Shown one piece after another: positions 542-45,417 of a DNA stretch of 45,417 bases (position 1 is its first letter; every line of letters starts with the position of its first letter). Origin of the DNA: a virus (Duplodnaviria > Heunggongvirae > Uroviricota > Caudoviricetes); IMG/VR virus record IMGVR_UViG_2706794697_000014, one strand, 5' to 3'. The translations under genes and the position numbers were made by a program. A model generated the notes under the pieces. The model had not been told where the DNA came from and made no database searches. It was given only the letters and a program-made list of their open reading frames with translations.

Positions 542-1579
542 TTAACGCTTATCCGCCACCAGTTTGAGCGCGTGTTCCAGCACATTAATGTCTGCACCCG
601 CTTTATGGGCATTTTCACTTAAATAACGCCGCCACTGCCGCGCGCCAGGAATACCCTGGAACAAGCCCAACATATGCCGGGTAATATGGCCGAGATACGT
701 CCCCTGGCTGAGTTCACGCTCAATGTACGGATACATGGCGCGCACTACCGCCACCGGATCGGCATCGGTATCCGAGGAACCAAAGATCTCCCGGTCTACC
801 GCCGCCAGAATACCCGGATTCTGATACGCCTCGCGCCCGACCATCACGCCATCCATATGTTGCAGGTGTGCTTTGGCCTCTTCCAGCGACTTGATACCAC
901 CGTTAATCGACATTGTCAGATGCGGAAAGTCACGCTTCAGTTGATACACACGCGGATAATCGAGTGGCGGGATTTCACGGTTTTCTTTCGGGCTTAACCC
1001 CGAAAGCCAGGCTTTACGTGCGTGGATGATAAACATCTCACACTCGCCTTTGCCGGAAACGGTGTTGATGAAATCGCAGAGAAATTCATAGCTGTCCTGG
1101 TCATCGATGCCAATACGCGTTTTCACCGTCACTGGAATCGACACCACATCGCGCATCGCTTTCACGCAGTCGGCAACCAGCTGCGCATTACCCATCAGAC
1201 ACGCACCAAACATGCCGTTCTGCACCCGGTCAGACGGGCAGCCGACATTCAGGTTGATCTCATCATATCCACGCGCTTCTGCCAGCTTCGCACACTGTGC
1301 CAGCGCCGCCGGATCGCTACCGCCGAGTTGCAACGCTACCGGATGTTCTTCTTCACTGTACGCCAGGTAATCACCTTTACCGTGAATAATCGCCCCTGTG
1401 GTCACCATTTCGGTATACAGCAACGTATTGCGGGAAAGCAGACGCAAGAAATAGCGGCAATGTCTGTCCGTCCAGTCGAGCATAGGAGCAATGCTAAACC
1501 GAGAACTCCAGTAAGCGCCAGTTTTTTCAGGCATCACGCTGGTTTGATTAGTTTTCTGTGTTTCAGGATTATCGTGCAT
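542..1579 (-). CDS. dusA: tRNA-dihydrouridine synthase A (host; 5' end adjoins prophage)
   Basis: 345-aa ORF with Dus/TIM-barrel sequence ([28 protein letters not shown]) recognised as E. coli DusA. Confidence 0.9.
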
Positions 1580-1667: not shown

Positions 1668-2765
1668 ATGGCGTACTATAACATAGAGAAACGACTAAAA
1701 TCCGATGGCACACCACGCTATCGCTGTAATGTGATTATCAAAGAAAAAGGTGTTATCACTTACAGGGAAAGCAAAACATTCCCTAAACATGCTCATGCCA
1801 AAACATGGGGCGCACAGAAAGTGATGGAATTAGATCTATATGGCATTCCATCATCAAATGCTGTTGACGGACTTACAGTCCGTGACTTACTACACAAATA
1901 TTTAAATGACCCAAATGCCGGAGGTAAAGCAGGCCGTACTAAAAGATATGTGCTGGAACTGCTTATGGATAGTGACATCTCCGCGATCAAACTATCTGAA
2001 CTGACAGAAAATGACGTAATTGAACATTGCAGGCTAAGAAACAACGCTGGTGCAGGCCCAGCAACAGTCAGCCACGATGTTAGTTATCTTGGCAGTGTTC
2101 TGGATGCGGCAAAACCTGTATACGGAATCAATTACACATCAAACCCGGCGAAAAGCGCTCGTCCATATCTACTTAAACTCGGTTTGATTGGTAAATCAAA
2201 CCGTCGTAATCGTAGACCAGCATCTGATGAACTGAACATGCTCATTGAAGGCCTTCAACAACGATCTACTCATAAATGCTCAAAAATTCCGTTCGTTGAT
2301 ATCCTCAAATTTTCTGTGTGGTCCTGTATGCGAATCGGAGAAGTATGCCGGTTACGATGGGAAGATCTCGACCAGGAACAAAAATCTATACTAGTAAGAG
2401 ACAGGAAAGATCCACGTAAAAAGGAAGGCAACCATATGAAAGTTGCCTTGCTTGGGGAAGCCTGGGATATCGTCCAGCGACAACCCAAAAAATCAGAATT
2501 CATTTTTCCATATAACAGCACTTCTGTTACCGCAGGATTTCAGAGGGTAAGAAGCAAATTAGGTATTAAAGATCTGAGATACCATGATTTGCGTAGAGAA
2601 GGGGCAAGTCGCTTATTTGAGGCTGGTTTTAGTATTGAGGAAGTCGCTCAGGTTACAGGGCATCGTTCATTAAACGTGCTATGGCAGGTATATACCGAAC
2701 TGTATCCGAAATCTTTACATAATCGTTTTGAAGAACTCCAAAGGAGCAGAAATAAGACCTCTTGA
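1668..2765 (+). CDS. int: tyrosine-type phage integrase (dusA-associated)
   Basis: 365-aa ORF, GAGG RBS 8-11 nt upstream; C-terminal catalytic region (HDLRREGASRLFEAGFSIEEVAQVTGHRS) typical of tyrosine recombinases; divergent from dusA 5' end. Confidence 0.9.
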   Translation: MAYYNIEKRLKSDGTPRYRCNVIIKEKGVITYRESKTFPKHAHAKTWGAQKVMELDLYGIPSSNAVDGLTVRDLLHKYLNDPNAGGKAGRTKRYVLELLMDSDISAIKLSELTENDVIEHCRLRNNAGAGPATVSHDVSYLGSVLDAAKPVYGINYTSNPAKSARPYLLKLGLIGKSNRRNRRPASDELNMLIEGLQQRSTHKCSKIPFVDILKFSVWSCMRIGEVCRLRWEDLDQEQKSILVRDRKDPRKKEGNHMKVALLGEAWDIVQRQPKKSEFIFPYNSTSVTAGFQRVRSKLGIKDLRYHDLRREGASRLFEAGFSIEEVAQVTGHRSLNVLWQVYTELYPKSLHNRFEELQRSRNKTS

Positions 2766-3296: not shown

Positions 3297-3848
3297 ATGC
3301 ATGACAATATTTGGTTTACATATAAAGCACGTATCCAAGCGCACCATCGACTAGAATGGCTTGAAAAACACTCTCAATTTATCCTCGTTTGGTATGCTAT
3401 ATTGAGTGCGGTACTTTCAATTGTAACGTTGCGATTTCCAAAGGTTCTAGGAGATAATACAGATGTCGTTGCGGCGATACTTTCAGTGGCTCTACTGGGT
3501 ATTTCTCTGATCGTATCTAACCTAGATTTTCGTGGTCGAGCAATAGCCATGAGAAGGAATTATATTGCACTACAGCGACTCTATTTTGACATTACCACCA
3601 GTCAACAGTTATCTCTTGAACAGAAAGAAAAATATTTTAATTTGCTCAATGAGGTTGAGAATCACCGTGACATAGATGATAAAATTTCAAGGGTAACTCA
3701 AGTTGGACTTAAGACGAGGATCCCCACACAAAAAGAAAAAATAATTGTTATTTTATGGATATTACTTCGAATATTTATTACTGCCGCACTTTATATACTC
3801 CCATTAATATATCTTTGGATTGACTATGACTGCAAGCAGAATTTTTAA
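3297..3848 (+). CDS. small multi-pass membrane protein, putative effector partner of the RT
   Basis: 183-aa ORF, AGGA RBS; hydrophobic segments FILVWYAILSAVLSIVTL, VVAAILSVALLGISLIVSNL, IIVILWILLRIFITAALYILPLIYLWI; AT-rich; overlaps RT start by 23 nt. Confidence 0.7.
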   Translation: MHDNIWFTYKARIQAHHRLEWLEKHSQFILVWYAILSAVLSIVTLRFPKVLGDNTDVVAAILSVALLGISLIVSNLDFRGRAIAMRRNYIALQRLYFDITTSQQLSLEQKEKYFNLLNEVENHRDIDDKISRVTQVGLKTRIPTQKEKIIVILWILLRIFITAALYILPLIYLWIDYDCKQNF

Positions 3849-5196
3849 AAAGTCATTCTCGAAAAAAAATCTTCTAAAAGTATACTCTGAAAAAATCAAA
3901 GAATCAGGAGCGATTGGCATAGATCGGATTCGCCCATCAAAACTTGATTTGACAATAAAAAATGAGATCACTTTCATTTTTGAAAAGGTTAATTCTGGCA
4001 ATTACAAATTTACAGCATATAAAGAAAAATTAATATCTAAAGGCGCTAACTCTACACCCAGACAGATTTCCATACCAACTGCTAGGGACAGAATTACTCT
4101 TAGAGCTCTCTGTGAATGCCTTACGGAAATATATCCTAAGTCCAGATTAAAACTACCACATACAGTAATTGACTCATTGAAAGAAGCATTAAACAACAGT
4201 CTATATGCTGAATATGCAAAAATAGATCTTAAAAGTTTCTATCCTTCAATTGAACATAAATTGATAATTAATGCAATAAAAAATAAAATTAGAAAAAAAG
4301 AAATTAGACAGTTAATAACATCATCATTAATCGTGCCTACTGTAAGTGGAACCACAGGAAGCAAAGGTATCCCTAATAATACCAGAGGAGTACCTCAGGG
4401 ATTAGCGATATCAAACATTTTAGCTGAAATATCACTATCTAATTTCGATGATGAAATCAATAAAATGCATGACATATGGTACATGCGATACGTTGATGAC
4501 ATTCTTATTTTAACACCAAAATATCAAGCAACAAAAATAGCTTCTCATATCATTGATAAGCTTCAATCATTAAATTTAAACCCACATCCATTAAATGAAG
4601 AGAACTCAAAATCCAAAGTAGGCAGCTTGGATGAAAGTTTCAACTTTTTGGGCTACCACATAAAAAATCGAGAATTATTGATAAAACATGAGAGCATTCT
4701 TAGATTTGAGTCATCCTTAGCAAAAATTTTTACTGCATATAGACACGCTCTACTACAAGCTAAAAATAAGCGCGATAAAGAACGAGCTGTTGCATATTGT
4801 CAGTGGAAACTAAATCTTAGAATTACGGGATGTGTGTTTGAAGGTAAACGATTGGGATGGGTATCGTACTTCTCACAAATAACGTCAACAGCTCAACTTC
4901 GAGCTGTTAATCATACGATCAATAATCTTATCCGCCGATTCGGCCTTTCATCAGAAATAAAACCAAAGTCTTTGATTAAAACTTTCTATGAACTCCGCAG
5001 GGGTAGAGCGGAGACTTTTAAATACATACCTAACTTTGACAATCTACATATATCTCAGAAACGAGAAATTGTTTCTATGTGGATAGGGAAAGAGAATGAA
5101 AAAAAACTTAGCAATAGTGAAATAGAGAGAAAATTTAAATTTAAAATTGCGAAATCAGTAAAAGAGCTTGAAGAGGACATTTCAGGGATATCATAG
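3826..5196 (+). CDS. reverse transcriptase (defence-associated/retron-like; family unassigned)
   Basis: RT motifs in translation: ISIPTARDRITLRAL (motif 1-2), KIDLKSFYPSIEH (3), GVPQGLAISNILAEI (4), YMRYVDDILIL with YVDD catalytic box (5), FNFLGYHI (7), thumb-like GKRLGWVSYF; ATG at 3826 within track ORF 3820..5196. Confidence 0.85.
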   Translation: MTASRIFKKSFSKKNLLKVYSEKIKESGAIGIDRIRPSKLDLTIKNEITFIFEKVNSGNYKFTAYKEKLISKGANSTPRQISIPTARDRITLRALCECLTEIYPKSRLKLPHTVIDSLKEALNNSLYAEYAKIDLKSFYPSIEHKLIINAIKNKIRKKEIRQLITSSLIVPTVSGTTGSKGIPNNTRGVPQGLAISNILAEISLSNFDDEINKMHDIWYMRYVDDILILTPKYQATKIASHIIDKLQSLNLNPHPLNEENSKSKVGSLDESFNFLGYHIKNRELLIKHESILRFESSLAKIFTAYRHALLQAKNKRDKERAVAYCQWKLNLRITGCVFEGKRLGWVSYFSQITSTAQLRAVNHTINNLIRRFGLSSEIKPKSLIKTFYELRRGRAETFKYIPNFDNLHISQKREIVSMWIGKENEKKLSNSEIERKFKFKIAKSVKELEEDISGIS

Positions 5197-5308: not shown

Positions 5309-5893
5309 TTACTCCATAACAGGGACCGCAGGCCACTCAATATCAGGTGCAGTTGATGTATCAACACGGTTCAGCAACACCCGATACTTCTTCCAGGCTT
5401 CCAGCAACGAGTTTTCTTCCTCCGTTGCGATCTCCAGATCTACAGCATCCTGAAGTGGCGCTATATGCTCACTGGCTACCTGCATCAGGCTGTTTTTTGT
5501 TTCTTCCGCCTCCCGGATCCGGAACAGTTTTTCTGCTTCCGTATCCTTCACCCAGGCTGTGCCGTTCCACTTCTGAAACTCCCCTTCCGGGGATAACCAG
5601 GTAACATTTTCCGGTAACGGACCGAGTTCAGAAATAAATAACGCGTCCCCTGACGCTACGTCATAAACCGTTTTACCCCGATGGTCTTCAACGAGATGCC
5701 ACGATGCCTCATCACTGTTGAAAACAGCCACAAAGCCAGCCGGAATATCTGGCGGTGCAATATAGGTACTGTTTGCTGGCAGACCTGTATGAGGCGGAAT
5801 ATATGCGTCACCTTCACCAATAAATTCATTAGTTCCGGTCAGCAGATTATAAATTTTTATGGTCCGTGGTTGTTCACTCATTCTGAATGCCAT
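5309..5893 (-). CDS. tfa: tail fibre assembly protein
   Basis: 194-aa product [18 protein letters not shown]...[10 protein letters not shown] closely matches lambda Tfa as recalled. Confidence 0.9.
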
Positions 5894-38554: not shown

Positions 38555-39383
38555 GACGATGCCCTCCGCTGATATTCAGGAGACGGTGAATATGAAAATT
38601 AGCCTTATCCGCCAGACGAATACGTTCAGCTTGCAAGTTAAGAAGGGTTTCTACCAGAACCTGATGTGCCTGCGGATCCGAAAGAGTTACCTTGCGCAGA
38701 GCACGTAGTGCAGTTGTTACATAACTGAGTTTATGTAAGTCTTCATCATTCAGACGAGTGAGGGCTGGGACAGTAGCCATGATGGCAGCCTCCTTGATCG
38801 GTGAAATACTTCCACCACCGGAAACGCCAATTTCGCTGGTGGTGAACTGAACGGGGTTGGCGTAACCGGTGATCAAGGAAACCGGCGCATCTTTCGATGC
38901 CCCCGCCCAGCCCACCATAACTTTGATGTGAGCAAATGCGGACGATAAAAAAGACGCTGGCGCGTCATATATCGCCTTGATCAATTCCAGGACGCCAATC
39001 CCGGCACCCGCTTTATAAGGTGCCTGAACAGTGTAACGTCCCGGAATGGCAGAATCAATGTGCTGGTGGTCCTTCACACTCAACAAAATCACGCCTGAAT
39101 TTCCACAAAGGACTAAAGCACTCATGCGGGTAGTCTTTGCGAAGATAGATAACGCGCTGTGTTTCTGGCTCCCAACGAATAACATGAACATAAAGTCCTC
39201 TTCCGTCACGAAACCAGCGGTTAAGTTCCTGCACAACTCGCCCCCCACAGTCAGGTAAAGTTCTCTGTGGTTACTTACAGCCAGGTGATTTGGTAATCTG
39301 CATTCATGCCGTAACAACAGGTGTTCAGCGACGCTGACCACCAGCTGTTGCGACAAACGGTTATTTGCCGTTAAACTGTTCAT
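38547..39383 (-). CDS. hypothetical early protein
   Basis: 278-aa ORF in early-right operon; no motif I can name. Confidence 0.45.
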   Translation of the reverse strand: MNSLTANNRLSQQLVVSVAEHLLLRHECRLPNHLAVSNHRELYLTVGGELCRNLTAGFVTEEDFMFMLFVGSQKHSALSIFAKTTRMSALVLCGNSGVILLSVKDHQHIDSAIPGRYTVQAPYKAGAGIGVLELIKAIYDAPASFLSSAFAHIKVMVGWAGASKDAPVSLITGYANPVQFTTSEIGVSGGGSISPIKEAAIMATVPALTRLNDEDLHKLSYVTTALRALRKVTLSDPQAHQVLVETLLNLQAERIRLADKANFHIHRLLNISGGHRHA

Positions 39384-40265: not shown

Positions 40266-40940
40266 ATGAAAACAGTCCATGACATCCGGCGGTCTAACGC
40301 CAGAAAACTGAGAGATGGTGTTGGCGGGAATTCTTCCTTTGCCACCATGATTGATCGCGAGCCAACCCAGACCAGCAGGTTTATGGGAGATGGTGCAACT
40401 AAAAATATCGGTGACAGCATGGCACGGCACATCGAAAAATGTTTCGACCTGCCTGTCGGATGGCTTGATCAAGAACACCAGACAACGAACATCACAAAAA
40501 AACCTGACGTTTCAATCACTAACAAACAAATAACGTTAGTCCCTGTCATATCATGGGTACAGGCCGGAGCATGGAAAGAAGTTGGCTATTCTGAGGTTGA
40601 TTTGAGCACAGCAGAAACTTATCCCTGCCCTGTACCCTGTGGCGAAATGACTTATATCTTGCGGGTGATTGGTGATTCAATGATTGATGAGTACCGCCCG
40701 GGAGACATGATTTTTGTTGATCCTGAAGTCCCTGCCTGCCACGGTGACGACGTTATTGCATTGATGCACGATACAGGCGAAACCACCTTCAAGCGGTTGA
40801 TAGAAGATGGAACACAGCGTTATCTCAAAGCATTAAACCCAAACTGGCCTGAGCCTTACATTAAGATTAACGGTAATTGCTCTATAATTGGTACAGTGAT
40901 TTTCTCAGGAAAACCAAGAAGATACATAATAAAGGCCTAA
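40266..40940 (+). CDS. cI: CI-like repressor (S24 LexA-type peptidase family)
   Basis: C-terminal S24 domain (VIGDSMIDEYRPGDMIFVD, TFKRL) preceded by DNA-binding N-terminus. Confidence 0.8.
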   Translation: MKTVHDIRRSNARKLRDGVGGNSSFATMIDREPTQTSRFMGDGATKNIGDSMARHIEKCFDLPVGWLDQEHQTTNITKKPDVSITNKQITLVPVISWVQAGAWKEVGYSEVDLSTAETYPCPVPCGEMTYILRVIGDSMIDEYRPGDMIFVDPEVPACHGDDVIALMHDTGETTFKRLIEDGTQRYLKALNPNWPEPYIKINGNCSIIGTVIFSGKPRRYIIKA

Positions 40941-40950
40941 TCAATATTTA

Positions 40951-40974
40951 TAACCTGCTTCGGCAGGTTTTTTT
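40951..40974 (+). terminator. intrinsic terminator after cI
   Basis: AACCTGC-TTCG-GCAGGTT followed by T7. Confidence 0.65.
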
Positions 40975-40977
40975 ATA

Positions 40978-41005
40978 CTTGACAATGTACCTTTGGGATA
41001 CATAA
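40978..41005 (+). promoter_or_regulatory. PL-like promoter overlapped by third operator
   Basis: TTGACA (40978-40983), 16-nt spacer, CATAAT (41000-41005); operator ATGTACC-TTTGG-GATACAT at 40984-41002. Confidence 0.5.
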
Positions 41006-41445
41006 TGTATCTAAAAGAAACACAGCACAGGCAAGATTAAACAAAATTTGGTTGTAACACGGCGTATGGCACATGCGTCGTTAGCGGTCTGGGGACGTTA
41101 AAGGGGACAATCCACTCCTTGCTCGGGCAAACAAACCAGGTAGCCGGAATGTGCAAGTCAATGATGATGCTGATAAGACGCCTAACCAGCGTGGCGATTC
41201 GGTTTGACGCCTGGGAAGAGACCAGGGTGCAACGATGAGGACATTTATGGAACCGCGACAAAGTGTGGTGCCGTAACTGGCTAAGTGCTCTCAGCGTTGT
41301 GGTGAATGCGCAGGCTGATGCGCGAAAGACATTGCAGCTAATGCGGAAAAGAGCTGTTCGGCGGGGCAATTAAACGCCCGTGAGAGTCTGAAATAACCGC
41401 AAGCCGGAGATCAGCACCGGTCACCACAACAGCCACTGCTTTGGC

Positions 41446-41580
41446 GGTACCAGTTTGTACACTTGCTTCCGGCTGGTACCGCTCTTTTTACAAAACAGAG
41501 AAGAGCATCACCGGACGACGGGCTCATAACCAAATCCATCCGGGCGGCTGCCACCGCAGGTGTTCTTCTCTGTTTTGTGG
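41446..41580 (+). promoter_or_regulatory. two large inverted repeats in the early-left leader
   Basis: GCGGTACCAG/CTGGTACCGC 10-bp perfect inverted repeat (41446-41484) and ACAAAACAGAGAAGA...TCTTCTCTGTTTTGT 15-bp perfect inverted repeat (about 41490-41578). Confidence 0.4.
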
Positions 41581-41626
41581 AGAAACCAACCGACCTTGCA
41601 GGGTCGATATGATTAGGAGCAGCAAA

Positions 41627-41989
41627 ATGGCTAGCGAACGCAGTACTGATGTGCAGGCATTTATTGGGGAGCTGGACGGCGGCGTATTTGAAACCAAAAT
41701 CGGCGCAGTTCTCAGTGAAGTCGCTTCCGGTGTGATGAACACGAAAACCAAAGGTAAGGTCTCACTCAACCTGGAAATCGAACCATTTGATGAGAACCGT
41801 GTGAAAATCAAACACAAACTCTCATATGTTCGCCCGACTAACCGCGGGAAAATTTCCGAAGAAGACACCACCGAAACGCCGATGTATGTCAATCGCGGTG
41901 GTCGCCTGACTATTCTGCAGGAAGACCAGGGACAATTACTGACTCTTGCCGGTGAACCTGACGGAAAACTCCGCGCAGCAGGTCATTAA
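41627..41989 (+). CDS. YfdP-like prophage protein
   Basis: 120-aa ORF with AGGAG RBS; position directly upstream of yfdQ-like gene as in CPS-53. Confidence 0.5.
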   Translation: MASERSTDVQAFIGELDGGVFETKIGAVLSEVASGVMNTKTKGKVSLNLEIEPFDENRVKIKHKLSYVRPTNRGKISEEDTTETPMYVNRGGRLTILQEDQGQLLTLAGEPDGKLRAAGH

Positions 41990-42054
41990 TATCGTTCTTA
42001 ATTAACCGATTATTTATCTCATCACTGAATATCTTTATATAGTGAGGACTTATT

Positions 42055-42879
42055 ATGTCTCAGAACTTAGACGCAACCGCAATTAATCAAATCCATGCCC
42101 TTATTTCTGCTCAGGGTGTTAATGAAATTATCAGTAAGATTGGTGCCGATGCTGTGGCATTGCCTGAGAATTTCCGCATTCATGATCTGGAAAAATTAAA
42201 TTTAAATCGTTTCCGTTTCCGTGGTGCGCTTTCCACTGCCAGCATCGATGACTTTACTCGTTATTCTAAAGATCTTGCAGATGAAGGCACCCGCTGCTTT
42301 ATCGATGCTGATAATATGCGTGCCGTCAGTGTTCTTAACCTGGGTACTATTGATGAACCAGGTCACGCAGATAACACCGCCACTCTCAAACTGAAAAAGA
42401 CAGCTCCGTTCTCTGCTCTGTTGTCTGTTAATGGCGAGCGTAACTCCCAGAAGTCACTGGCAGAATGGATTGAAGACTGGGCCGACTACCTTGTGGGCTT
42501 TGATGCTAATGGTGACGCCATTCAGGCAACCAAAGCGGCTGCGGCGATCCGTAAAATCACAATTGAAGCGAACCAGACCGCTGATTTTGAAGATAATGAC
42601 TTCAGCGGCAAACGCTCCCTGATGGAGTCTGTCGAAGCGAAGACCAAAGACATTATGCCAGTGGCATTTGAATTTAAATGCGTTCCGTTTGAAGGTCTGA
42701 AAGAACGTCCGTTTAAATTACGCCTCAGCATTATCACTGGCGATCGTCCTGTACTGGTTCTGCGCATTATTCAGCTGGAAGCGGTACAGGAAGAAATGGC
42801 TAACGAATTTCGTGATCTGCTTGTTGAGAAATTCAAAGACAGCAAAGTAGAAACCTTTATTGGTACTTTCACCGCCTGA
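42055..42879 (+). CDS. yfdQ: YfdQ-family (DUF2303) prophage protein
   Basis: 274-aa [24 protein letters not shown]... recalled as YfdQ-like; GTGAGGA RBS. Confidence 0.6.
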
Positions 42880-43016
42880 TTTCATTACTGCAAATGCCCC
42901 TGCGGGGGCATTTACGGAAGCGATAATTTTAACTATTGCCGCCCCTATAAAGAACCATTAAACAATAACGTGACGTAGCTATTGATAGTAAATGAAGCAC
43001 TTGCAAAATAATTGCA

Positions 43017-43850
43017 TTGCGTATATATACACACATGTGTTGTATTACAGCGATAATGGTAAAGCAAATGATTAACTCTGAAGCAATTGAGCAACTAATG
43101 TGGCTATGGTCCTTATTTGACATTAAATTCTTATCTATTCTTGCCGCTGCCTTCACTATATATTTTGGCGTGCAAAAAATATCAAAAAAGGTGACAGTGT
43201 CGTATTCAGCAAATGCAAGTAGAATATATGACATGCATATATCAACCATAATCCTGAATAATAAAAGAGATAATGCAATTGCTATATCTTCAATCAATAT
43301 GGAGGTTGAAGGTAAAGGGATACTACAAGTTATTAAATTTGACTCCCCTCTTCTTTTAAAGAACTATGATTCTTTAAAAGTTGAACCACCAAAATTTAGC
43401 AGCCTTTACAATAATGATGGCGTAGTTAAGTTAGATATTTCTGATAAGTTTCATTTTTATATAATCACGACATCTGGAGATGAAATTAAATGTATTTCTG
43501 AAAATAAATATGTAGCACCAAACATGGAAAACAAAATAGCTACAGACATAAGAAAATTTAATGGCATTGTCTTAACAAACAGAATGTCTTATATTTTTTT
43601 CTATGCAAATGACAACGGAGAGAAATACTGCATAATAGATGTTTCATTGTTCATAAATGGTGACAACCCATTTCATTTTAATTTTTTAAAAGAAGATGAA
43701 TTAAGAGATTTTTCTAGCATCCTTATTAGTTACGGATATCACCAACAGTTTAAAAGTTATGCATTGTTTAAAATAGACAACCATCTTGCTCCTTCTTTGG
43801 TTTTAAATAAATCAATGATAGAAAATAATATTATTGAAATGAATAAGTAA
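43017..43850 (+). CDS. AT-rich hypothetical protein with N-terminal membrane anchor
   Basis: ORF with hydrophobic segment LMWLWSLFDIKFLSILAAAFTIYF then about 220-aa Asn/Lys/Ile-rich domain; start uncertain (track start is TTG; ATG candidates at MVKQ/MINSE). Confidence 0.55.
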   Translation: MRIYTHMCCITAIMVKQMINSEAIEQLMWLWSLFDIKFLSILAAAFTIYFGVQKISKKVTVSYSANASRIYDMHISTIILNNKRDNAIAISSINMEVEGKGILQVIKFDSPLLLKNYDSLKVEPPKFSSLYNNDGVVKLDISDKFHFYIITTSGDEIKCISENKYVAPNMENKIATDIRKFNGIVLTNRMSYIFFYANDNGEKYCIIDVSLFINGDNPFHFNFLKEDELRDFSSILISYGYHQQFKSYALFKIDNHLAPSLVLNKSMIENNIIEMNK

Positions 43851-43886
43851 CTCACCGGGTGCAGCCGGTTATGATGGAGAAATGAT

Positions 43887-44168
43887 ATGAATACCTTGTT
43901 TTTACTGATGGCTGAATTCAATACCCCAAACATTGAACTCTCAGCAGTTAGTCAAAAATACTTTGGTATGAGTCCAGCCACAGCAGAAGCAAAAGCAAAC
44001 GCTTGTAAGTTGCCTGTACCTACATATCGCATCGGTACATCACAAAAAGCAAAACGTTGCATCAATATTCAGGATCTTGCGGAATACATAGACAAAAGAC
44101 GAGAAGAAGGACGTATCGAGTGGGAACAGGTCAGAACAGGCAAACAGAAGGGCAAAGAACATCACTAA
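43887..44168 (+). CDS. PrtN-like pyocin activator family protein
   Basis: 93-aa product MNTLFLLMAEFNTPNIELSAVSQKYFGMS... recalled as PrtN family; GGAGA RBS. Confidence 0.6.
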   Translation: MNTLFLLMAEFNTPNIELSAVSQKYFGMSPATAEAKANACKLPVPTYRIGTSQKAKRCINIQDLAEYIDKRREEGRIEWEQVRTGKQKGKEHH

Positions 44169-44169
44169 A

Positions 44170-44200
44170 GAAAAAACCCGCCTAAAGGCGGGTTTTCAAA
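44170..44200. terminator. bidirectional intrinsic terminator
   Basis: A6-AACCCGCC-TAAA-GGCGGGTT-TTT between convergent genes. Confidence 0.6.
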
Positions 44201-44216
44201 AAGCACCAGCTATGAT

Positions 44217-44390
44217 CATGCTGCTTTGCGACGACGAAGCTTACCCTGCTGCTCTTTACCAGAGACAGTAGCGTGAGTGAACGCATTAGGAGCAGCCTTC
44301 ATCAGAACTTCAACAGCAGCACCCATACCTGCGAATGCTTTCATTGTGTCGAACTTAACCTGTGGCTTGGTTGCTTTTTGATCTTCCATA
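44217..44390 (-). CDS. hypothetical small protein (58 aa)
   Basis: ORF below track cutoff: MEDQKATKPQVKFDTMKAFAGMGAAVEVLMKAAPNAFTHATVSGKEQQGKLRRRKAA; GGAG RBS; followed by terminator. Confidence 0.3.
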
Positions 44391-44428
44391 GAAAACTCCA
44401 GAAGCTATACCGAAACAATTCCTGTTGT

Positions 44429-44848
44429 TTACTCATCATCAATAGATGATACGCAATATTTATTTTTAAATTTAAGGTTCTTTGGCGTAACTTCATCAGA
44501 TATATCAAAACCGTCCAGAATTCTATTGAATGTAGCTTCTGGCATATCATCATGAACGGAAATCTCACCCGATCGCTGCTTTCTAACCATGTTATCCACT
44601 CGCCAAATTATAGCTTCAGCGTAAACAACATAACTTGGATGCTTGATAAAGCGATGATCACCAGAATTCAAGACGCAAGACGGATCGTGGGGGACACCAT
44701 CCTTGATACTAGAAATATTAACAACTAAAACACAATAACAATCGTTAACGGGGTAATAAACAGGATCATTACAAATCACATGAAGATGATTGCATGGCCC
44801 AGTTGGGGCAAGCACAGTTCCTTTCCTGTATGGCTGATAATCCGTCAT
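44429..44848 (-). CDS. hypothetical protein, candidate toxin partner of Panacea-like gene
   Basis: 139-aa ORF overlapping upstream gene by 4 nt (ATGA coupling). Confidence 0.5.
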   Translation of the reverse strand: MTDYQPYRKGTVLAPTGPCNHLHVICNDPVYYPVNDCYCVLVVNISSIKDGVPHDPSCVLNSGDHRFIKHPSYVVYAEAIIWRVDNMVRKQRSGEISVHDDMPEATFNRILDGFDISDEVTPKNLKFKNKYCVSSIDDE

Positions 44849-45417
44849 GATAATTGCAAAGAAAATTCCTTAAGTTTCTGAGATTCTTCCATTTTGCCAA
44901 TTATACGATTAGCCTCATCCTCGCTTTTACCCTCACTGATCAGCATTTCTTTCAGGTCTATAGGCTTACGAGAATTGCCAGGATTGTGCCACTCTGGACA
45001 AACGCTTTCTAAATGCGTCATGTTTGCGAGATCAAATCGGTTCATATGCCCATACAGAGAATAGATTTCATCTAAAATCCGGATATCTGCACGGCTCAAC
45101 TCATCAAAGACCTCGTCTGCATCCATTTCCCTCGGATCTGAACGCAACAACACATCATGCCCGTTCGTCTCTATCAGGTTGTACCAGTAGTCACCAATAC
45201 CTTCAGCCTTACCACGAATCAAGTTCAGCGTATTCGACATGACTGGACCAAATTTCATAGAGTAAAGGCTATCTTCGCCGATCATCCTGCCATGCTTCAA
45301 AATCGACTTGCGGTTAGACAGATAGAGCAGCTTCATCAATTTCAGATATGCCATGCGCCCACCTCGCTTAAGAAGTAGGTATGCAGCCATTTGAGCTACT
45401 TTTTCTTCGCAAAACAT
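44845..45417 (-). CDS. Panacea/DUF4065 (SocA/GepA)-like protein; start coincides with window edge
   Basis: N-terminus MFCEEKVAQMAAYLLLKRGGRMAYLKLMKLLYLSNR resembles DUF4065 phage-associated proteins as recalled; ORF begins at the last codon of the window, so may be 5' truncated. Confidence 0.45.
   Translation of the reverse strand: MFCEEKVAQMAAYLLLKRGGRMAYLKLMKLLYLSNRKSILKHGRMIGEDSLYSMKFGPVMSNTLNLIRGKAEGIGDYWYNLIETNGHDVLLRSDPREMDADEVFDELSRADIRILDEIYSLYGHMNRFDLANMTHLESVCPEWHNPGNSRKPIDLKEMLISEGKSEDEANRIIGKMEESQKLKEFSLQLS

What the first reader, a model, noticed from the sequence alone, without database searches (positions are those of the whole stretch)
43017..43850. Low-GC membrane-anchored protein of unknown function in the early-left operon
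Seen directly: strongly AT-rich ORF with one N-terminal hydrophobic helix and a ~220-aa Asn/Lys/Ile-rich domain, between yfdQ-like and prtN-like genes and preceded by an AT-rich spacer. Inference: horizontally acquired cargo in the operon position where lambdoid phages carry exclusion genes (rex, sieB); a candidate superinfection exclusion or abortive infection factor.
Basis: inference. Interest (0 to 1): 0.5.

Follow-up and report, generated by a model that had tools for sequence, protein, structure and literature searches.

The report
Orphan membrane-anchored prophage cargo gene
A real, AT-rich 260-residue gene for a membrane-anchored protein has been swapped as a cassette into an E. coli prophage; its small, undescribed family rides as solo cargo in variable slots of phages, satellites, islands and plasmids, so it is a reasonable but untested anti-phage candidate.

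Summary
Window 43017-43850 is the longest possible ORF; the real gene most likely starts at ATG 43068 (260 aa). It has 29% GC against 49% for the window and lies between yfdQ (DUF2303) and a PrtN-type excisionase.

It is a 925-bp cassette (42930-43854). It replaces the yfdR-yfdT block that related prophages carry in the same slot.

No member matches Pfam, NCBIfam or PADLOC. About 220 clusters at 50% identity exist, with no conserved partner gene and always low GC.

Homologues occupy cargo slots:
- the P2 gpQ-gpA defence hotspot;
- next to a type II-A retron;
- beside integrases in satellites and islands;
- on small Acinetobacter plasmids.

Near-identical Klebsiella prophages carry alleles only 43% identical.

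"Acquired cargo" is supported. "Rex/sieB position" is wrong: this is the xis-proximal slot, where lambda and P22 carry their ea genes. A defence or exclusion role is the best guess (about 0.45) and rests on context alone. The finding is a moderately interesting test candidate.

The parts
42930..43854 (+). Exchanged cassette: 138 nt of AT-rich upstream DNA, the gene, and 4 nt. It replaces the yfdR...exonuclease block of related dusA prophages.
   Evidence: blastn against the O157:H7 prophage: homology ends at 42929 and resumes at 43855. The alternative gene content of the slot is shown.
43068..43850 (+). Coding sequence, 260 aa (WP_047654657.1).
   Evidence: All 16 copies intact with dN/dS 0.3-0.5. 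phrog_14996, unknown function, 2.3e-178.
43101..43172 (+). Residues 12-35: single hydrophobic membrane-anchor helix. It is followed by the conserved basic stretch Q-K-I-S-K-K, in which K37 is nearly invariant across the family.
   Evidence: AlphaFold helix 4-39. Hydropathy and flanking charges across 126 members: N-tail net -0.4, 12 residues after the helix net +1.9.
43191..43499 (+). Residues 42-144: Ig-like beta-sandwich domain. It carries the family motifs N65-K-R-D-N, P94-L-L-L-K98, S111 and C142.
43521..43847 (+). Residues 152-260: compact alpha/beta C-terminal domain with no recognisable structural relative.
42930..43067 (+). AT-rich upstream part of the cassette. Any promoter of the gene's own would lie here, for example TTGATA-16-CAAAAT at 42982-43009 (9 of 12 matches).
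   Evidence: Promoter-like sites in the scanned region are no more frequent than in shuffled sequence. The TTGATA hexamer reads TAGATA in the 93%-identity allele group. A promoter is therefore unproven.
42893..42914 (+). Hairpin AAATGCCCC-TGC-GGGGCATTT just after the yfdQ stop. It is conserved in about 2700 E. coli genomes and lies just inside the left border of the conserved flank.
   Evidence: Read directly from the sequence. The first about 50 nt after yfdQ match at 92-95% in 2714 genomes. It was not called a terminator by the scan, as it lacks a T-run.
42055..42879 (+). Upstream neighbour yfdQ (DUF2303), an early-left operon gene of unknown function.
43887..44168 (+). Downstream neighbour: PrtN-family protein, most likely the prophage excisionase. 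It starts 36 nt after the stop, with no terminator-like site found in between.
   Evidence: Pfam PyocinActivator 3.1e-23. phrog_1300 excisionase 1.1e-39. Sequence.
40979..41006 (+). Consensus-like sigma-70 promoter (TTGACA-16-CATAAT, 11 of 12) downstream of the repressor gene. It is the probable pL that would drive yfdP-yfdQ-gene-xis.
   Evidence: gene order. The function of this site is inferred.

Best explanation
The gene is a self-contained accessory cassette that was swapped into the xis-proximal end of the early-left operon of a lambdoid prophage integrated at dusA.

It encodes a single-pass inner-membrane protein. The short acidic N-tail probably faces the periplasm. One hydrophobic helix anchors the protein. 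A two-domain body (an Ig-like sandwich plus a small alpha/beta domain of unrecognised fold) is held at the cytoplasmic face. No catalytic-looking motif is conserved.

Its most likely role is that of a stand-alone anti-phage or inter-element competition factor. The tethered body would recognise a component of an incoming phage at the inner membrane, such as genome-delivery machinery or an early protein. It would then either block productive genome entry (exclusion) or, through its membrane helix, compromise the membrane (abortive infection).

Shown: the gene is real, the cassette was exchanged, the domain architecture is as described, the family exists and has no annotation, and homologues sit in cargo slots. 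Inferred: the topology, expression in the lysogen, the anti-phage role, and every mechanistic step.
For: 1. Cassette swap with sharp borders, and presence in only 99 of 5426 genomes against about 2700 that carry the flank.
2. The family always occurs as a single gene with no conserved partner. It is always at 25-34% GC in hosts of 40-52% GC.
3. Homologues occupy recognised cargo or defence positions:
- A 30%-identical homologue lies between portal gpQ/ogr and replication gpA of a P2-like phage. That is the P2 defence hotspot defined in PMC9122126.
- The Pantoea homologues are adjacent to a type II-A retron (RT 5.6e-107, NDT effector 1.9e-59).
- The Buttiauxella homologue is next to an HNH nuclease.
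- Citrobacter homologues sit beside the integrase in a primase-bearing satellite-like element and in CbtA/CbeA islands.
- Acinetobacter plasmid copies lie beside MazEF and an HNH protein.
- A homologue of unidentified host lies in an island that also encodes a HEPN protein, a DUF4062 protein and an MvaT-like protein.
4. Klebsiella prophages with flanks 93-98% identical carry alleles only 43% identical, with different companion genes. This is the rapid replacement typical of conflict genes.
5. The same prophage carries other defence-type cargo at its ends: a UG17 reverse transcriptase with a SLATT protein, and a Panacea-type pair.
6. dN/dS of 0.3-0.5 with all copies intact indicates a maintained function.
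7. Charge bias and variable, often odd cysteine counts favour a cytoplasmic body.
8. Priors from the literature: 6 of 8 randomly chosen unknown loci in P4 hotspots gave protection (PMC13586616). SNIPE shows that a membrane-bound defence protein can act at the phage genome-injection site (PMC13190303).
Against: - No experiment exists, and no characterised homologue was found.
- None of 126 members matches PADLOC, Pfam or NCBIfam.
- The accession is absent from the DefensePredictor supplementary tables and from all searched full texts.
- The gene points the same way as the pL operon and sits 36 nt from xis. No promoter or terminator of its own was demonstrated. It may therefore be silent in lysogens, which would not suit a classical exclusion gene.
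- Hotspots also hold non-defence cargo such as partition systems and toxins (PMC9122126). The retron neighbour is seen only in Pantoea and a related metagenome contig.
- tblastn finds no copy in 50,697 deposited phage genomes.
- Topology rests only on charge and cysteine statistics. The hydrophobic run is short, at 16-21 residues.
Confidence: 0.45

Rival explanations
1. It is a lytic-cycle accessory of the phage itself, transcribed from pL only after induction or infection. It would be a membrane-tethered host-takeover or counter-defence factor, comparable in logic to lambda kil, gam, ral or the ea genes. It would not protect the lysogen.
For: - It has the same orientation as the pL operon and lies 36 nt upstream of xis with no terminator-like site found between them.
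- It occupies the slot where lambda and P22 carry their ea genes.
- In other prophages it sits in early-right positions after the replication genes or a methylase.
- Several homologues lie directly upstream of xis-int.
Against: - Homologues also occur on small plasmids and in integrative islands that have no phage lytic programme.
- One homologue lies in the P2 gpQ-gpA slot, convergent with gpA, which is where old and tin sit.
- By general knowledge, counter-defence proteins are usually small and soluble; a membrane anchor is unusual for them.
Confidence: 0.2
2. It is an envelope-facing conversion or exclusion factor with the opposite topology: N-terminus inside and the Ig-like body in the periplasm. 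It would mask or inhibit an inner-membrane or periplasmic component used for phage entry, as T4 Sp or HK97 gp15-type proteins do.
For: - The body starts with an Ig-like sandwich. Among the top structural neighbours are extracytoplasmic proteins: archaeal pilins, which also have an N-terminal helix followed by a sandwich, PapD-like chaperones and carbohydrate-binding modules.
- A K/R residue also precedes the hydrophobic run in most members.
Against: - The charge balance favours a cytoplasmic C-side: net +1.9 after the helix against -0.4 for the N-tail.
- Cysteine counts in the body are variable and often odd, and C142 is a nearly invariant cysteine. This is atypical of periplasmic domains.
- No signal-peptidase or lipobox motif was seen in the sequence.
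Confidence: 0.12
3. It is selfish or neutral cargo with no role in phage conflict. Possibilities are a membrane toxin or addiction-type gene, an element-maintenance factor, or a decaying passenger kept silent by H-NS because of its AT-richness.
For: - It has no recognisable functional domain.
- It is extremely AT-rich, and in one island it lies next to a gene for an MvaT-like silencer.
- dN/dS is higher than expected for housekeeping genes (the comparison with housekeeping genes rests on general knowledge).
- One E. coli strain carries IS1 inside the gene, and truncated versions exist in the database.
Against: - All 16 full-length copies examined are intact, and selection is purifying.
- The architecture is conserved down to about 20% identity across 126 sequences and several genera.
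- Both domains give confident folded models.
- No adjacent antitoxin-like partner is conserved.
Confidence: 0.13

Closest known systems
Lambda/P22 SieB and lambda RexAB (classical lambdoid exclusion genes)
   Same: They are prophage-borne and membrane-associated (the membrane association rests on general knowledge). They are non-essential accessory genes on the left arm of the immunity/early region, and they exclude other phages.
   Different: - No sequence or profile similarity: hhalign probability is below 1%, and an hmmsearch of the family profile finds nothing among all lambda and P22 ORFs.
- Different position. rex lies between cI and pL. sieB lies between N/24 and ral on the opposite strand, with its own annotated promoter in P22.
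- Different size. SieB is 184-192 aa, RexA 279 aa and RexB 144 aa, and Rex works as a two-gene pair.
Single-gene prophage blockers of genome entry (P22 SieA, HK97 gp15 moron, T4 Imm/Sp)
   Same: Each is one small membrane protein, carried as accessory cargo, proposed or shown to act at the inner membrane during genome entry. HK97 gp15 is the textbook 'moron' with deviant composition.
   Different: - No similarity to P22 SieA. HK97 gp15 and T4 Imm/Sp were not compared by sequence here.
- The present protein is larger, at 260 aa, and has a folded body of about 220 residues that is probably cytoplasmic.
- Entry blocking is untested for it.
SNIPE, the membrane-bound nuclease that cleaves phage DNA during injection (PMC13190303)
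   Same: It is a membrane-localised defence protein that works at the phage genome-injection site by contacting the tape measure protein and ManYZ. It is the best precedent for how a membrane-tethered body could work.
   Different: SNIPE carries DUF4041 and a nuclease domain. The present family matches no Pfam domain and has no conserved catalytic motif. It is an analogy of logic only, not a relative.
Cargo of the P2 gpQ-gpA and P4 psu-int antiviral hotspots (old, tin, PARIS and others; PMC9122126, PMC13586616)
   Same: These are short, often single-gene, low-GC, rapidly replaced cassettes next to conserved anchor genes of temperate elements. One family member sits in the P2 hotspot itself.
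   Different: - The window copy is in a lambdoid prophage at a different anchor pair (yfdQ and xis).
- The family is not among the systems named in those papers, as far as their main texts show.
- Not all hotspot cargo is defensive.
Lambda and P22 'ea' genes (xis-proximal early-left accessory genes)
   Same: Same slot: between the recombination or unknown early-left genes and xis, transcribed with pL, non-essential and variable between phages.
   Different: No similarity was found to any lambda or P22 ORF, including ea8.5, ea22, EaA and EaC. The ea genes are themselves mostly of unknown function, so the comparison gives position but no mechanism.

Membership tests
SieB (lambda/P22 superinfection exclusion B) | Sequence or profile homology to SieB | tested here: not met
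   hhalign of the 126-sequence family profile against lambda SieB gives probability 0.3%. hmmsearch of the profile against all lambda and P22 ORFs has a best E-value of 0.51, which is noise.
SieB (lambda/P22 superinfection exclusion B) | Location between N/24 and ral, antisense to pL, with its own promoter | tested here: not met
   The lambda and P22 records show sieB on the strand opposite to the pL genes, next to N/24, with an annotated promoter in P22. The present gene is co-oriented with the operon and lies next to xis.
RexAB | Two-gene rexA-rexB pair between cI and pL; homology to RexA or RexB | tested here: not met
   It is a single gene, about 2 kb downstream of the repressor and beyond yfdP and yfdQ. 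hhalign against RexB gives probability 0.2%. No hit to RexA or RexB ORFs.
P22 SieA | Homology to SieA, the 164-aa superinfection-exclusion protein of P22 | tested here: not met
   The family profile gives no hit to the P22 sieA ORF. The architecture also differs: a single helix plus a body of about 220 aa.
Any catalogued anti-phage defence protein (PADLOC-DB v2.0.0) | Match to a PADLOC profile | tested here: not met
   There were 0 hits for the window protein. Among 126 members only two isolated marginal hits appeared, with E of 0.0016 or weaker. The database dates from 2023, so later systems are not covered.
Moron (independently acquired accessory cassette of a temperate phage) | Present in some and absent from closely related phages at the same site, with deviant base composition | tested here: met
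   The borders are at 42929/43855 relative to the O157 dusA prophage, which carries other genes there. It is present in 99 of 5426 genomes. GC is 29% against 49%.
Moron (independently acquired accessory cassette of a temperate phage) | Own promoter and terminator, giving expression from the repressed prophage | tested here: inconclusive
   Only weak promoter-like sites were found (9 of 12 matches), no more than in shuffled sequence. No terminator-like site lies after the stop, and xis starts 36 nt later. RNA data from a lysogen are needed.
P2/P4-type antiviral hotspot cargo | Location between the anchor genes of a described hotspot (P2: gpA and gpQ) | tested here: met
   This is met for a 30%-identical homologue (L046). 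The order there is P2-family capsid, terminase, portal, Ogr/Delta, homologue, a 361-aa ORF, then gpA convergent; the hotspot definition is. It is not met for the window copy, which is in a lambdoid phage.
P2/P4-type antiviral hotspot cargo | Demonstrated protection against phages | not testable with these tools
Brenes & Laub 2025 (Cell Host Microbe), a screen of E. coli prophage defences, is not held and could not be checked.
Ig-like / E-set beta-sandwich fold (residues 42-144) | Structural match to Ig-like sandwiches | tested here: inconclusive
Bitopic inner-membrane protein, N-out / C-in | One transmembrane helix with a positive-inside charge bias towards the C-side | tested here: inconclusive
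   The uncharged run is 16-21 residues. The N-tail is net -0.4 and the 12 residues after the helix are net +1.9 across 126 members; cysteine counts are odd and variable. No dedicated topology predictor or experiment was available.

The most novel reading that the evidence does not exclude
The family is a previously undescribed single-protein immunity module. A membrane-tethered, cytoplasm-facing sensor is built from an Ig-like sandwich and an alpha/beta domain of new fold. It intercepts phages at the inner membrane without any enzymatic domain, and it is shuttled as a gene-sized cassette between lambdoid and P2-like phages, satellites, islands and plasmids of Gammaproteobacteria.
Probability: 0.35. 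Interest if true: 0.6.

Novelty: new member of a known kind. Interest (0 to 1): 0.4.

Why it matters
If the protein protects against phages, it would add a new non-enzymatic, membrane-tethered defence family. It would also flag the yfdQ-xis slot of the very common yfdP/Q-type lambdoid prophages as a defence hotspot; the yfdQ-side flank occurs in about half of complete E. coli genomes.

The cassette is about 0.9 kb with defined borders. Natural allelic series exist, with alleles 43% identical in otherwise near-identical prophages. This makes it an easy system for mapping specificity determinants.

If it gives no phenotype, it remains one of many orphan prophage genes, and the finding is ordinary.

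Tried and rejected
- **Family libraries.** Pfam, NCBIfam, PADLOC and PHROGs were scanned with the protein and with 126 family members. Only phrog_14996 (unknown function) matched.
- **Partner gene.** The 427-aa gene upstream of the Acinetobacter copy and the 477-aa gene upstream of the Citrobacter copy are unrelated. The excisionase-like genes downstream are also unrelated.
- **Conserved upstream promoter.** MAFFT suggested similarity between the E. coli and Citrobacter upstream regions. blastn shows that the shared unit starts only 2 nt before the ATG.
- **Deposited phages.** tblastn against 50,697 phage genomes found nothing.
- **Wider context sampling.** Most distant representatives sit on contigs of 1-2 kb.
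- **Literature.** Searches by accession and by gene neighbourhood found no report. Brenes & Laub 2025 could not be read.
- **'Not a gene'.** This reading was rejected on intact copies, purifying selection and confident folds.

Full report
**Where the window comes from.** Window 42000-45417 is 100% identical to part of a prophage in E. coli A14 and several other strains. Annotation of that record shows a lambdoid prophage integrated at dusA. In window coordinates the host dusA is at 542-1579 (-), the integrase at 1668-2765, and a LexA-type repressor (ymfK) at 40266-40940. The early-left genes yfdP (41627-41989) and yfdQ (42055-42879) follow, then the gene in question, then a PrtN-family gene at 43887-44168. 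A minus-strand cluster ends at the window edge, with a dusA fragment just beyond.

**The observation.**
- RefSeq starts it at ATG 43068 (260 aa, WP_047654657.1). The homologue alignment begins with a nearly invariant M-x-N, so 43068 is the better start.
- The gene has 29.0% GC (GC3 26.4%) against 49.3% for the window, with Ile 12.7%, Ser 9.6%, Asn 9.2% and Lys 8.5%. The 188-nt spacer before it has 37% GC.
The latter also scores as an excisionase PHROG at 1.1e-39.
- The gene is real. All 16 copies recovered from IMG/VR keep 260 codons, in 10 distinct alleles. Pairwise dN/dS is mostly 0.3-0.5.

**A cassette swap.** Compared with the O157:H7 dusA prophage, homology ends at 42929 and resumes at 43855. 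Position 42929 is 50 nt after the yfdQ stop, just past a conserved hairpin; 43855 is 5 nt after the stop of the gene. In that phage the interval holds yfdR, a hypothetical gene, a methyltransferase pseudogene, another hypothetical gene and an exonuclease fragment. In other prophages yfdQ is followed by yfdR-yfdS-yfdT and xis-int. The yfdQ-side flank is present in 2714 of 5426 complete E. coli genomes, the gene in only 99. The shared unit with the 64%-identical Citrobacter gene is 43066-43889, essentially the ORF alone. The downstream excisionase-like genes are unrelated.

**Position in the phage.** The repressor is followed by a terminator-like hairpin (40952-40969) and an 11-of-12 consensus promoter (40979-41006). 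yfdP, yfdQ, the gene and xis then follow on the same strand. The literature places yfdP/yfdQ/yfdR homologues in the early-left operon of lambdoid phages such as ST64B and LLS; yfdP and yfdQ have no known function (PMC12315714). So 'early-left operon' is right.

The comparison with rex and sieB is not right. In lambda and P22, rex lies between cI and pL. sieB lies next to N/24 on the opposite strand, with its own annotated promoter in P22. The slot next to xis corresponds to the lambda and P22 'ea' genes. Only weak promoter-like sites occur in the 138 nt that travel with the gene, no more than in shuffled sequence. The best one is altered in the second allele group, and xis begins 36 nt after the stop with no terminator-like site found. 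Expression in the lysogen is therefore open.

**The protein.**
- An AlphaFold model from 11 sequences (pLDDT 80) gives a long N-terminal helix (residues 4-39), a beta-sandwich (about 42-144), a poorly defined linker (145-151) and a mixed alpha/beta C-terminal part.
- Across 126 family members the uncharged hydrophobic run is 16-21 residues. The N-tail is slightly acidic (net -0.4) and the 12 residues after the helix are basic (net +1.9). Cysteine counts in the body are variable and often odd. This favours an N-out, C-in orientation with the body in the cytoplasm, but it is an inference.
- Nearly invariant positions in the wide family are K37, N65, P94, S111, C142 and G194. No recognisable catalytic set is conserved.

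**The family.** A word-indexed search of 5.8 billion proteins found 11 clusters, all enterobacterial and all 'hypothetical'. A full HMMER scan of 1.84 billion representatives with the profile found 221 proteins at E up to 0.001 and 141 at 1e-10. Apart from truncated fragments they are about 230-290 residues long with the same plan. None of 126 members matches Pfam, NCBIfam or PADLOC beyond isolated marginal hits. The only named family is phrog_14996, of unknown function. The family profile shows no relation to any lambda or P22 ORF, including SieA, SieB, RexA/B and the Ea proteins.

**Where homologues sit.** The gene is always single. Its neighbours differ and no partner is conserved. It is at 25-34% GC in hosts of 40-52% GC. 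The contexts are:
- Other lambdoid prophages, directly upstream of excisionase and integrase.
- Klebsiella prophages, between the replication/methylase genes and the DUF1367-RecA-dependent-nuclease genes that precede the head genes. Other lambdoid elements carry it after the replication genes or a methylase.
- A P2-like phage, between portal gpQ/ogr and replication gpA. This is the hotspot where P2 carries old and tin and where Rousset et al. found many defence systems (PMC9122126).
- Pantoea chromosomes, adjacent to a type II-A retron.
- Buttiauxella, adjacent to an HNH endonuclease.
- Citrobacter, beside the integrase of a primase-bearing satellite-like element and of CbtA/CbeA islands.
- Small Acinetobacter plasmids, beside MazEF and an HNH-domain protein.
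- An island of unidentified host that also encodes a HEPN protein, a DUF4062 protein and an MvaT-like protein.

Two Klebsiella prophages whose flanking proteins are 93-98% identical carry alleles only 43% identical, with different companion genes. The window's own prophage also carries a UG17 reverse transcriptase with a SLATT partner next to the integrase. It also has a Panacea-domain gene pair at the other end.

**Interpretation.** These features are the signature of conflict-related cargo: gene-sized exchange, no partner, deviant composition, occupancy of variable slots in many kinds of mobile element (including a described defence hotspot), and rapid allele replacement. A stand-alone anti-phage factor is the best-supported reading.

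The architecture suggests a membrane-tethered binding module rather than an enzyme. The recently described SNIPE system shows that a membrane-bound defence protein can act at the injection site through contacts with the tape measure protein and ManYZ (PMC13190303). In P4 hotspots, 6 of 8 randomly chosen unknown loci protected against phages (PMC13586616), which gives a favourable prior.

Against this, the evidence is contextual only. Hotspots also hold non-defence cargo. The gene may be silent in the lysogen, since it lies inside the pL operon without a proven promoter. No current defence model recognises it. I therefore put the defence reading at about 0.45. The rivals are a lytic-cycle accessory of the phage (0.2), a periplasm-facing entry blocker with inverted topology (0.12) and selfish or neutral cargo (0.13).

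**Limits.**
- No topology predictor, AFDB search, DefenseFinder or current PADLOC was available.
- Most distant family members lie on contigs too short for context.
- The one paper most likely to have tested E. coli prophage genes of this kind, Brenes & Laub 2025, is not held.
- The accession was not found in any searched full text or in the DefensePredictor supplements.

**Verdict.** The 'acquired cargo' inference is supported, the positional analogy to rex and sieB is wrong, and the exclusion or abortive-infection idea is plausible but unproven. The gene is an uncharacterised family member of a familiar kind, prophage accessory cargo. It is of moderate interest as a cheap, well-delimited candidate for a new defence family.

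Noticed in passing
window 3297-3848 (+) and 3820-5196 (+): A SLATT-domain protein (PADLOC RTasSLATT 1.5e-56) and a UG17-class reverse transcriptase (RT_UG17 1.1e-158) form a DRT-type defence pair. They lie between the integrase/DinI genes and the tail-fibre genes of the same prophage.
   Followed up: partly
window 44429-45417 (-): A Panacea/SocA-like antitoxin-domain gene (44845-45417, Pfam 1.8e-18) overlaps by 4 nt a 139-aa ORF of unknown function (44429-44848, phrog_19071). This looks like a PanA-type toxin-antitoxin pair at the prophage end. The O157:H7 dusA prophage has a different gene in this slot.
   Followed up: partly
window 43887-44168 (+) and 1668-2765 (+): The 'pyocin activator PrtN' gene scores as an excisionase PHROG (1.1e-39). 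It sits at the opposite end of the prophage from the integrase, so xis and int are separated by the whole prophage.
   Followed up: partly
window 38835-38922 (-) and 38947-39023 (-): Rfam matches above gathering score to C4 antisense RNA (82 bits) and the IsrK Hfq-binding sRNA (64 bits). They lie side by side, inside or next to the 'ash family' gene of the early-right region.
   Followed up: no
window 5352-5550 (-): Full-length Rfam match to IS009 (RF02111, 225 bits) inside the tail-fibre assembly gene region.
   Followed up: no
window 40952-41626 (+): Downstream of the repressor gene lie a terminator-like hairpin (40952-40969) and then an 11-of-12 consensus promoter (40979-41006). About 620 nt at 50-54% GC follow, with no annotated gene before yfdP. 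Related prophages carry small genes in this stretch.
   Followed up: no
L009 8001-8774 versus L058 7992-8780 (Klebsiella-type prophages): The flanking proteins are 93-98% identical, but the two alleles of this family are only 43% identical. Each has a different companion: a 113-aa ORF on the same strand in L009, and a low-GC 236-aa ORF on the opposite strand in L058.
   Followed up: partly
E. coli E89, NZ_CP121157.1 4392497-4394279 (hit H16): In this strain the match to the spacer-plus-gene query is split in two pieces by an IS1-like element. This looks like a natural knockout of the cassette.
   Followed up: no
L009 14352-14612 (+): The Klebsiella prophage that carries a family member also encodes a protein with the Acb2/Tad1 hairpin domain, a counter-defence family, among its head genes.
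   Followed up: no
L046 8777-9862 (+): In the P2-like phage hotspot the family member is followed by a second low-GC ORF (361 aa, 26% GC). That ORF has no Pfam or PADLOC match and is another uncharacterised hotspot gene.
   Followed up: partly
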